Shown piece by piece: positions 4,570 through 4,632 of a stretch of 64,000 nt of DNA (the stretch's first letter is position 1; the number at the start of each line of letters is the position of its first letter). Origin of the DNA: Escherichia coli (GTDB lineage Bacteria > Pseudomonadota > Gammaproteobacteria > Enterobacterales > Enterobacteriaceae); NCBI RefSeq assembly GCF_003018255.1, contig NZ_CP027440.1; one strand, given 5' to 3'. The position numbers and the translations under genes were made by a program. Under the pieces are notes generated by a model. That model worked only from the letters and a program-made list of their open reading frames with translations, searched no databases and was not told the origin of the DNA.

Positions 4570-4632
4570 CTGTTCATATCTGTTCATATTCTGCCGTAAG
4601 CCGTTCATCCTGACCAGTGCCGCTGTTCATAT
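4570..4632 (+). promoter_or_regulatory. four tor boxes (TorR-binding decamers) in the torR-torC intergenic region
   Basis: CTGTTCATAT at 4570-4579, 4580-4589 and 4623-4632; degenerate CCGTTCATCC at 4601-4610; all direct repeats upstream of torC. Confidence 0.85.

What the first reader, a model, noticed from the sequence alone, without database searches (positions are those of the whole stretch)
4570..4632. Four tor boxes, including one degenerate copy
Three perfect CTGTTCATAT decamers and one degenerate CCGTTCATCC in direct orientation lie between divergent torR and torC. This is the TorR operator arrangement that drives torCAD and torR autoregulation, and shows the Tor three-component system (TorS-TorT-TorR) is complete.
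Basis: partly seen in the sequence, partly recalled or inferred. Interest (0 to 1): 0.25.

Follow-up and report, generated by a model that had tools for sequence, protein, structure and literature searches.

The report
Known TorR operator of E. coli torCAD
The four 10-base repeats are the long-known binding sites for the regulator TorR between the torR and torC genes of Escherichia coli, base-for-base as published, so the finding is correct but ordinary.

Summary
CTGTTCATAT occurs three times (4570-4579, 4580-4589, 4623-4632) and CCGTTCATCC once (4601-4610). All four lie on the + strand in the 129-bp gap between divergent torR (3859-4551, -) and torC (4681-5853, +). These are the only three perfect copies in 64 kb, against 0.10 expected.

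The window is E. coli. From box1 through box4 the sequence is identical to K-12 MG1655 and matches the published tor boxes letter for letter. That 63-bp stretch is 100% identical in 5100 of 5415 complete E. coli genomes. The same layout and span recur at the torR-torC gap in Salmonella, Edwardsiella and Enterobacter ludwigii.

torS, torT, torR, torC, torA and torD are all intact, and the phosphorelay residues are present.

The mechanism comes from the literature, not from tests here: TorS/TorT phosphorylate TorR in response to TMAO, and TorR on the phased boxes activates torCAD. From my recollection of Ansaldi 2000, binding at box1-box2 also represses torR.

Small additions from this work: a conserved TAAGAT, the likely torC -10, lies 8 bp after box4. 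A conserved TGACCAGTG element lies between box3 and box4. Rare natural variants carry 1 or 3 tandem boxes, or a 43-bp box2-to-box4 deletion.

Verdict: already known, low interest.

The parts
31..2775 (-). torS, the hybrid sensor kinase. The annotated-type start is GTG at 2775. The ATG 30 nt downstream at 2745 is the start supported experimentally in PMC6814406. The longer 954-aa ORF reaching 2895 is an artefact of ORF listing.
   Evidence: NCBIfam NF008543 TorS equivalog, 1893 bits against a cut-off of 982. 97.7% identical to K-12 TorS. H453, D733 and H860 present.
2858..3886 (+). torT, the periplasmic TMAO-binding protein
   Evidence: NF008185 TorT equivalent, 494.6 bits against a cut-off of 200. 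The 82-bp torS-torT spacer is the same as in K-12, so no prophage sits at the HK022 attB site.
3859..4551 (-). torR, an OmpR/PhoB-family response regulator
   Evidence: NF008034 TorR equivalog, 428.7 bits against a cut-off of 275, full length. 99.6% identical to K-12. D53 present.
4570..4579 (+). tor box1, CTGTTCATAT
   Evidence: Identical to K-12 and to the published box.
4580..4589 (+). tor box2, CTGTTCATAT, in tandem with box1. Together they form the high-affinity TorR site according to the literature.
   Evidence: The high-affinity assignment comes from Ansaldi 2000 (title seen; content from my own knowledge).
4601..4610 (+). tor box3, CCGTTCATCC, the degenerate low-affinity copy (7 of 10 matches)
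   Evidence: Published sequence, and no TorR shift with box3 alone. The core GTTCA is invariant in 9 aligned sequences from 4 genera, although the search pattern did not require it.
4611..4622 (.). Conserved inter-box element TGACCAGTGCCG. I infer it carries promoter -35 information: TGGTCA on the minus strand (4616-4611) for PtorR, and/or GTG(A/C)CG on the plus strand (4617-4622) for PtorC.
   Evidence: CTGACCAGTG(A/C)C is conserved in Escherichia, Salmonella and Edwardsiella, and this was not imposed by the search pattern. The functional assignment is inference only.
4623..4632 (+). tor box4, CTGTTCATAT, the promoter-proximal box
4641..4646 (+). TAAGAT, the candidate -10 hexamer of the torCAD promoter, 8 bp after box4
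   Evidence: Conserved at a fixed distance from box4 in Escherichia, Salmonella and Edwardsiella, and TAAAAT in Enterobacter ludwigii, while the sequence downstream diverges. No consensus sigma-70 promoter was found, as expected for an activator-dependent promoter. No transcription start site was seen.
4588..4593 (-). CAGAAT on the minus strand, the candidate -10 of the torR promoter. It overlaps the end of box2 and lies 17 bp from TGGTCA (4616-4611).
   Evidence: Read from the sequence. At 8 of 12 matches it falls just below the scanner threshold. It would place the torR start inside box2, consistent with Ansaldi 2000 as I recall it. Low confidence.
4681..5853 (+). torC, the pentahaem c-type cytochrome
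   Evidence: NF011606, 884 bits. 100% identical to K-12.
5853..8399 (+). torA, the TMAO reductase
   Evidence: NF011682, 1617 bits.
8396..8995 (+). torD, the TorA-specific chaperone
   Evidence: NF003442, 262 bits. A 199-aa product from the ATG at 8396.

Best explanation
This is the TorR operator (the four tor boxes) of the E. coli torR-torCAD divergent control region. When TMAO binds periplasmic TorT, the hybrid kinase TorS phosphorylates TorR through its phosphorelay (residues H453, D733 and H860 are intact here). TorR is an OmpR/PhoB-type regulator that recognises direct repeats. It occupies the tandem box1-box2 site with high affinity. Phosphorylated TorR then fills box3 and box4, which lie two and four helical turns further on, on the same face of the DNA. 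Box4 sits just upstream of a conserved TAAGAT -10 at a promoter with no good -35. TorR there most likely recruits RNA polymerase, as PhoB does at pho boxes, and switches on torCAD. Occupancy of box1-box2 covers the start region of the divergent torR promoter, so TorR also represses its own gene. Shown here: the sequence, the context, identity to the characterised K-12 operator, conservation, and intact partner genes. Taken from the literature: binding, activation and autorepression. Inferred by me: the exact positions of the -10 and -35 elements.
For: The decamers are exact and clustered far beyond chance. They lie in the torR-torC intergenic region, and all six tor genes score as NCBIfam equivalogs. 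From box1 through box4 the sequence is 100% identical to K-12 MG1655; the only three differences from K-12 lie downstream of box4. The published box sequences are identical, and EMSA gave Kd values of about 1-3 uM for boxes 1, 2 and 4 and no shift for box3 alone (PMC9239176). Genomic SELEX gave a single TorR peak at the torR/torC spacer, with and without acetyl phosphate (PMC5934670). The TorT/TorS/TorR signalling logic is described in PMC4949985 and PMC6814406. The 63-bp operator is identical in 5100 of 5415 E. coli genomes. The same layout and the same 61-bp span occur at torR-torC in 11 species-level genomes of 4 genera. The phospho-acceptor residues are intact.
Against: Nothing observed contradicts it. 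The limits are as follows. No binding or expression was measured on this sequence. The primary papers (Simon 1995, Ansaldi 2000) could not be opened. The cross-species loci were retrieved with a pattern that required boxes 1, 2 and 4, so their invariance is partly by construction. The GTDB representative of Salmonella enterica proper did not match that pattern. The consensus promoter scan found no sigma-70 promoter, so the promoter positions are inferred.
Confidence: 0.97

Rival explanations
1. The repeats are a slippage or duplication by-product in an AT-rich intergenic region and have no regulatory role.
For: The tandem box1-box2 pair does change copy number by 10-bp steps in nature: 3 copies in 24 genomes, 1 copy in 14, and one 43-bp deletion between box2 and box4. 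So repeat-mediated slippage does act here.
Against: The two-copy, four-box form is fixed in more than 99% of E. coli genomes. It is conserved with identical spacing across four genera, while the flanking leader sequences diverge. Published binding and SELEX data map TorR to exactly this spot.
Confidence: 0.01
2. The boxes are sites for another OmpR/PhoB-family regulator, for example PhoB, because pho-box half-sites (CTGTCAT) resemble CTGTTCAT.
For: The sequences resemble each other, and the promoter-proximal repeat sits about 10 bp upstream of the -10 in both cases. The pho-box comparison comes from my own knowledge, not from a tool.
Against: The tandem tor boxes repeat every 10 bp and carry an extra T in the core, whereas pho boxes have 7-bp repeats every 11 bp. 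The cognate regulator gene torR is adjacent and divergently transcribed. SELEX and EMSA assign the site to TorR. The site co-occurs with torR-torC in every true locus recovered.
Confidence: 0.01
3. The operator has more than four TorR half-sites. A fifth degenerate box (TTACTCATTA, 4633-4642) follows box4 in phase, so box4 plus this fifth box would mimic the box1-box2 tandem.
For: the repeat finder aligns CTGTTCATATTTACTCAT (4623-4640) with CTGTTCATATCTGTTCAT (box1+box2) at 83% identity. In K-12 the corresponding stretch reads TTGCTCAT, one base closer to the consensus.
Against: That segment is not conserved in Salmonella (TTGCGGAA), Edwardsiella (TTAATCAA / TTAAACAA) or Enterobacter ludwigii, whereas the four boxes and TAAGAT are. 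It abuts the likely -10, where a bound regulator would be expected to hinder activation rather than help it.
Confidence: 0.05

Closest known systems
tor boxes / TorR operator of E. coli K-12 torCAD (Simon et al. 1995, PMID 8596446; Ansaldi et al. 2000, PMID 10648521)
   Same: Everything that defines it matches: the four decamers, their sequences, order, orientation and spacings of 10, 21 and 22 bp, the location between divergent torR and torC, and the cognate TorS/TorT/TorR genes. From box1 to box4 the sequence is base-for-base identical to MG1655.
   Different: Only three SNPs in the 129-bp intergenic region, all downstream of box4: window 4635 A against G in K-12, 4667 T against C, and 4676 C against T. 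The exact 91-bp stretch 4560-4650, which includes 4635 A, is found in 1009 of 5416 genomes; K-12-derived genomes, which carry G at 4635, score 98.9% in that search.
tor regulatory region of Salmonella enterica (PMC9239176)
   Same: The same box nomenclature and sequences are reported. EMSA shows TorR binding to boxes 1, 2 and 4 and not to box3 alone. In my alignment S. arizonae and S. diarizonae share the boxes, the spacing, CTGACCAGTGAC and TAAGAT.
   Different: The leaders on both sides and the box2-box3 spacer differ. Box3 is CCGTTCATTC in S. arizonae.
PhoB pho boxes and OmpR sites (class of OmpR/PhoB-family direct-repeat operators)
   Same: Direct repeats are recognised by a winged-helix response regulator. 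Multiple phased sites show hierarchical or cooperative filling. The proximal repeat lies about 10 bp upstream of the -10 at a promoter lacking a good -35. This comparison rests on my own knowledge of those systems.
   Different: The tor repeat is a 10-bp unit with core GTTCAT, and the tandem pair is spaced 10 bp apart. Boxes 3 and 4 are spaced two turns apart rather than forming an adjacent pair. The regulator is TorR.

Membership tests
TorR operator (tor boxes) of torCAD | Three decamers CTGTTCATAT plus one degenerate CCGTTCATCC | tested here: met
   The published sequences are identical (PMC9239176).
TorR operator (tor boxes) of torCAD | All boxes in direct orientation with starts 10, 21 and 22 bp apart (same face of the helix) | tested here: met
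   Identical to K-12. The same 61-bp span occurs in 11 loci from 4 genera.
TorR operator (tor boxes) of torCAD | Location in the intergenic region between divergent torR and torC | tested here: met
   ORFs, NCBIfam equivalog hits and RefSeq annotation of identical DNA.
TorR operator (tor boxes) of torCAD | Cognate regulator TorR with its phospho-acceptor Asp, plus an intact TorS phosphorelay and TorT | tested here: met
   (all above curated cut-offs). (TorR D53; TorS H453, D733, H860). (97.7-100% identity to K-12 proteins, no internal stops).
TorR operator (tor boxes) of torCAD | Physical binding by TorR and TorR-dependent, TMAO-induced transcription | not testable with these tools
   Published for the identical sequence: EMSA (PMC9239176) and genomic SELEX with a single peak (PMC5934670). 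Not measured on this strain.
TorR operator (tor boxes) of torCAD | Box1-box2 overlaps the torR promoter or start site (negative autoregulation) | tested here: inconclusive
   Only a sub-threshold candidate promoter was found: TGGTCA, 17 bp, CAGAAT on the minus strand, 8 of 12 matches. It would place the start in box2. The claim itself rests on Ansaldi 2000, which is not held.
PhoB pho box | Two 7-bp CTGTCAT repeats with 11-bp periodicity, in a Pho-regulon promoter | tested here: not met
   The repeat unit here is CTGTTCATAT with a 10-bp period, and the adjacent genes are torR and torC. The pho-box definition is from my own knowledge.

The most novel reading that the evidence does not exclude
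The tandem box1-box2 array is a slippage-prone element whose copy number varies naturally in E. coli. There are 1 copy in 14 complete genomes, 3 copies in 24, and a 43-bp box2-to-box4 deletion in one. Variants occur in differently named strains and serotypes (for example O157:H7 and O45:H2 for the 1-copy form); I did not test whether they arose independently. These variants could act as natural tuning alleles, or loss-of-induction alleles, for torR autorepression and TMAO-induced torCAD expression. The window itself carries the standard two-copy, four-box form, so this reading concerns the locus in the population, not this sequence.
Probability: 0.15. Interest if true: 0.3.

Novelty: already known. 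Interest (0 to 1): 0.07.

Why it matters
For this window it matters only as correct annotation. It marks the cis-regulatory site that makes TMAO respiration inducible, and it confirms that this strain carries a complete, apparently functional Tor pathway with no prophage at the torS-torT attB site. It opens no new question. The minor by-products (the conserved TAAGAT and TGACCAGTG elements, and the rare copy-number variants of the tandem boxes) could guide a small promoter-architecture or population study of a well-understood system.

Tried and rejected
(1) A fifth, degenerate tor box after box4 is rejected because that segment is not conserved outside Escherichia.

(2) The 10-mer TTTACTCATT flanking the operator on both sides (4560-4569 and 4632-4641) is also absent outside Escherichia. 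In K-12 the second copy reads TTTGCTCATT. I treat it as a passing observation. It contains a NarL-type heptamer TACTCAT, which I did not pursue.

(3) The consensus sigma-70 and terminator scan of 4480-4760 found nothing. That is uninformative for an activator-dependent promoter.

(4) Attempts to open the primary papers failed: PMID 10648521 / PMC94371, PMC196761 and PMC4438215.

(5) Two genome contigs pattern hits, a Woesearchaeota MAG (L004) and an Eggerthellaceae MAG (L012), have no tor homologues and were set aside as chance matches.

(6) Other decamer matches with 1 or 2 mismatches in the window are scattered singletons: 66 observed against 50.6 +/- 7.2 expected, and 63 after removing the three real boxes. 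I do not treat them as extra TorR sites.

(7) Taking CFSAN061763 as the source strain was wrong. It is identical over 4400-4800 but only about 97.5% identical across the window, with indels. I used it only as a gene map.

Full report
**Observation**

Reading 4300-4900 shows CTGTTCATAT at 4570-4579 and 4580-4589 as a perfect tandem. CCGTTCATCC lies at 4601-4610 and CTGTTCATAT again at 4623-4632. All four are on the + strand.

An exact search finds only these three perfect copies on either strand of the 64-kb window. The expectation from 100 shuffles is 0.10, and no shuffle reaches 3. The core GTTCAT occurs four times in these 63 bp. Its rate across the window is 4.1e-4 per position per strand.

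Start-to-start spacings are 10, 21 and 22 bp, which is one, two and two helical turns.

Box3 on its own is statistically weak. The chance of a site with 3 or fewer mismatches somewhere in the box2-box4 gap is 0.087. It falls to 0.011 for an exact GTTCAT core, or for the phased positions only. Box3 is credited mainly because of its phasing, its conservation and the published work.

**Context**

The repeats lie in the 129-bp gap between torR (3859-4551, minus strand) and torC (4681-5853, plus strand).

All six tor products match NCBIfam equivalog models over essentially their full length and above the curated cut-offs:
- TorS, 1893 bits against 982
- TorT, 495 bits against 200
- TorR, 429 bits against 275
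- TorC, 884 bits against 455
- TorA, 1617 bits against 909
- TorD, 262 bits against 132

They are 97.7-100% identical to the K-12 proteins and have no internal stops. The phosphorelay residues TorS H453, D733 and H860 and TorR D53 are present. So the statement that the three-protein sensing system is complete holds, on the evidence of the genes themselves.

The 954-aa torS ORF in the mechanical ORF list is an over-extension. The RefSeq-type start is GTG at 2775. The ATG 30 nt downstream (2745) corresponds to the start shown to be functional in PMC6814406.

The torS-torT spacer is 82 bp, as in K-12. No HK022-like prophage occupies that attB site. About 5% of sequenced E. coli genomes carry a prophage integrated immediately upstream of torS; in K-12, an HK022 prophage there changes torCAD regulation (PMC6814406).

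**Identity with the characterised system**

The window is E. coli. Positions 4400-4800 are 100% identical to many complete genomes and are present in 5416 of 5426.

Aligned with K-12 MG1655, the whole stretch from the torR start codon through box4 is identical. The only differences lie downstream of box4: 4635 A against G, 4667 T against C, and 4676 C against T.

PMC9239176 gives box1, box2 and box4 as 5'-CTGTTCATAT-3' and box3 as 5'-CCGTTCATCC-3'. It reports TorR EMSA Kd values of about 1-3 uM for boxes 1, 2 and 4. It saw no shift for box3 alone, and attributes box3 binding to prior binding at box4, citing Simon et al. 1995.

Genomic SELEX found one TorR peak in the E. coli genome, at the torR/torCAD spacer. 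It appeared with and without acetyl phosphate and was stronger with it (PMC5934670).

The signalling logic is described in PMC4949985 and PMC6814406. TMAO-bound TorT switches TorS to kinase mode, TorR~P activates torCAD, and TorS acts as a phosphatase otherwise.

The two founding papers could not be opened. [quoted passage not shown] Three points rest on my recollection of them and on their titles in reference lists:
- box1-box2 is the high-affinity site covering the torR start;
- autorepression is independent of TMAO;
- the helical phasing between box2 and box3 is required.

**Conservation**

Within E. coli, the 63-bp operator is 100% identical in 5100 of 5415 genomes. The remaining 315 fall in the 95-99% identity band.

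Across species, one scan of 100,044 species-representative genomes used the pattern CTGTTCATNNCTGTTCATN{25,45}TGTTCAT and gave 13 loci. tblastn shows that 11 of them are torR-torC intergenic regions with the same torS-torT-torR/torCAD synteny. They come from:
- Escherichia (E. coli x2, E. albertii, E. whittamii)
- Salmonella (S. arizonae, S. diarizonae)
- Edwardsiella (4 species)
- Enterobacter ludwigii

The two others are MAGs with no tor genes and are chance matches. All 11 true loci have the same 61-bp span, although the pattern allowed a 21-bp range.

The alignment includes columns that the pattern did not constrain. Several of these are conserved:
- the box3 core GTTCA, which is invariant;
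- the element CTGACCAGTG(A/C)C between box3 and box4;
- TAAGAT, 8 bp after box4 (TAAAAT in E. ludwigii).

The torR leader upstream of box1 and the torC leader downstream of TAAGATC diverge freely. This is a clean phylogenetic footprint. The caveat is that boxes 1, 2 and 4 were selected for by the pattern, and the Salmonella enterica representative did not match it.

**How it most likely works**

Shown or published: TorR binds these boxes, and TorR~P activates torCAD.

Inferred from the footprint:
- TAAGAT (4641-4646) is the torC -10. That places the start near 4653 and gives a leader of about 28 nt.
- The box4 core ends 10 bp upstream of this -10, and no good -35 exists. This is the geometry of PhoB at pho boxes (my own knowledge). 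It suggests TorR~P at box4 substitutes for -35 recognition.
- On the other strand, TGGTCA (4616-4611), then 17 bp, then CAGAAT (4593-4588) is a plausible though sub-threshold torR promoter (8 of 12 matches). Its start would fall inside box2 and its spacer would contain box3. This would explain both the conservation of TGACCA and the reported autorepression through box1-box2.

These promoter assignments are hypotheses and need start-site mapping.

**Rivals**

- A functionless slippage product is excluded by the conservation and by the published binding data.
- A site for another OmpR-family regulator such as PhoB is not supported. The period is 10 bp rather than 11, the core differs, the cognate torR gene is adjacent, and SELEX and EMSA assign the site to TorR.
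- A fifth degenerate box after box4 was suggested by an 83% match of 4623-4640 to box1+box2. It is not conserved outside Escherichia, so I reject it provisionally.

**By-products**

The direct repeats do mediate rare rearrangements in natural E. coli:
- Strain OkiPb01695 has a precise 43-bp deletion from box2 to box4. It leaves two tandem boxes directly upstream of the promoter.
- 14 genomes have a single copy in place of box1-box2, including JNEC-KY204, several O157:H7 strains and an O45:H2 strain.
- 24 genomes have three tandem copies, including PMV-1 and NU14.
- Box3 also varies: CTGTTCATCC in PMV-1 and CCATTCATCC in JNEC-KY204.

Together these variants make up under 1% of genomes. That fits purifying selection on the two-copy, four-box form. 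Their phenotypes are untested.

**Verdict**

The feature is a well-characterised operator in its textbook organism, identical to the reference sequence. It is already known, and interest is low.

Noticed in passing
Related loci: L015 2993-3078 (E. coli OkiPb01695), L016 188-306 (JNEC-KY204), L017 173-311 (PMV-1); corresponds to window 4570-4632: The tor boxes show natural copy-number and deletion polymorphism in E. coli. One genome has a precise 43-bp deletion between box2 and box4. In 14 genomes box1-box2 is collapsed to a single box. In 24 genomes it is expanded to three tandem boxes. Box3 variants include CTGTTCATCC (PMV-1) and CCATTCATCC (JNEC-KY204).
   Followed up: partly
window 4611-4622 and 4641-4646: CTGACCAGTG(A/C)C between box3 and box4, and TAAGAT 8 bp after box4, are conserved across Escherichia, Salmonella and Edwardsiella, while the flanking leaders diverge. 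They probably mark the -35 region(s) of the back-to-back torR and torC promoters and the torC -10. No transcription start data were seen.
   Followed up: partly
window 4560-4569 and 4632-4641: The 10-mer TTTACTCATT is repeated exactly on both flanks of the operator. Each copy contains TACTCAT, which fits the NarL heptamer TACYYMT (4562-4568 and 4634-4640). torCAD is listed as NarL-repressed (table in PMC4949985). K-12 has G at 4635, which breaks the second heptamer. The exact 91-bp stretch 4560-4650, which includes A at 4635, occurs in 1009 of 5416 genomes. The 10-mer is not conserved in other genera.
   Followed up: no
window 9001-9243: A tandem array of 2.4 copies of a 101-bp unit lies between torD and cbpM. 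The unit is made of REP-like palindromes (GCCTGATAAGACGCG...CGCATCAGGC / GCCGGATGCGGCG...CTTATCCGGCC), so it looks like a BIME-type array. It is one unit longer than in strain CFSAN061763.
   Followed up: partly
window about 10634/10635 (between cbpA 9555-10475 and agp 11010-12251): About 1.26 kb present in strain CFSAN061763, and in K-12 by my recollection, is absent here. It covers most of yccE. The window goes straight from cbpA to agp.
   Followed up: partly
window 2745-2895: The torS start is ambiguous. The mechanical ORF runs back to an ATG at 2895, overlapping the torT start. The RefSeq-type start is GTG at 2775. The ATG at 2745 (M11) matches the start shown to be functional by lacZ fusions in PMC6814406. 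The 82-bp torS-torT spacer is intact, so there is no HK022-type prophage at attB.
   Followed up: partly
window 3859-3886: Convergent torT and torR overlap by 28 bp at their 3' ends, as in K-12.
   Followed up: no
L004 7801-7851 and L012 3452-3514: The box pattern also matched a Woesearchaeota MAG and an Eggerthellaceae MAG that have no Tor homologues nearby. I treated both as chance. The L012 region has several further GTTCAT / TGAACG copies and might be an unrelated direct-repeat operator.
   Followed up: no
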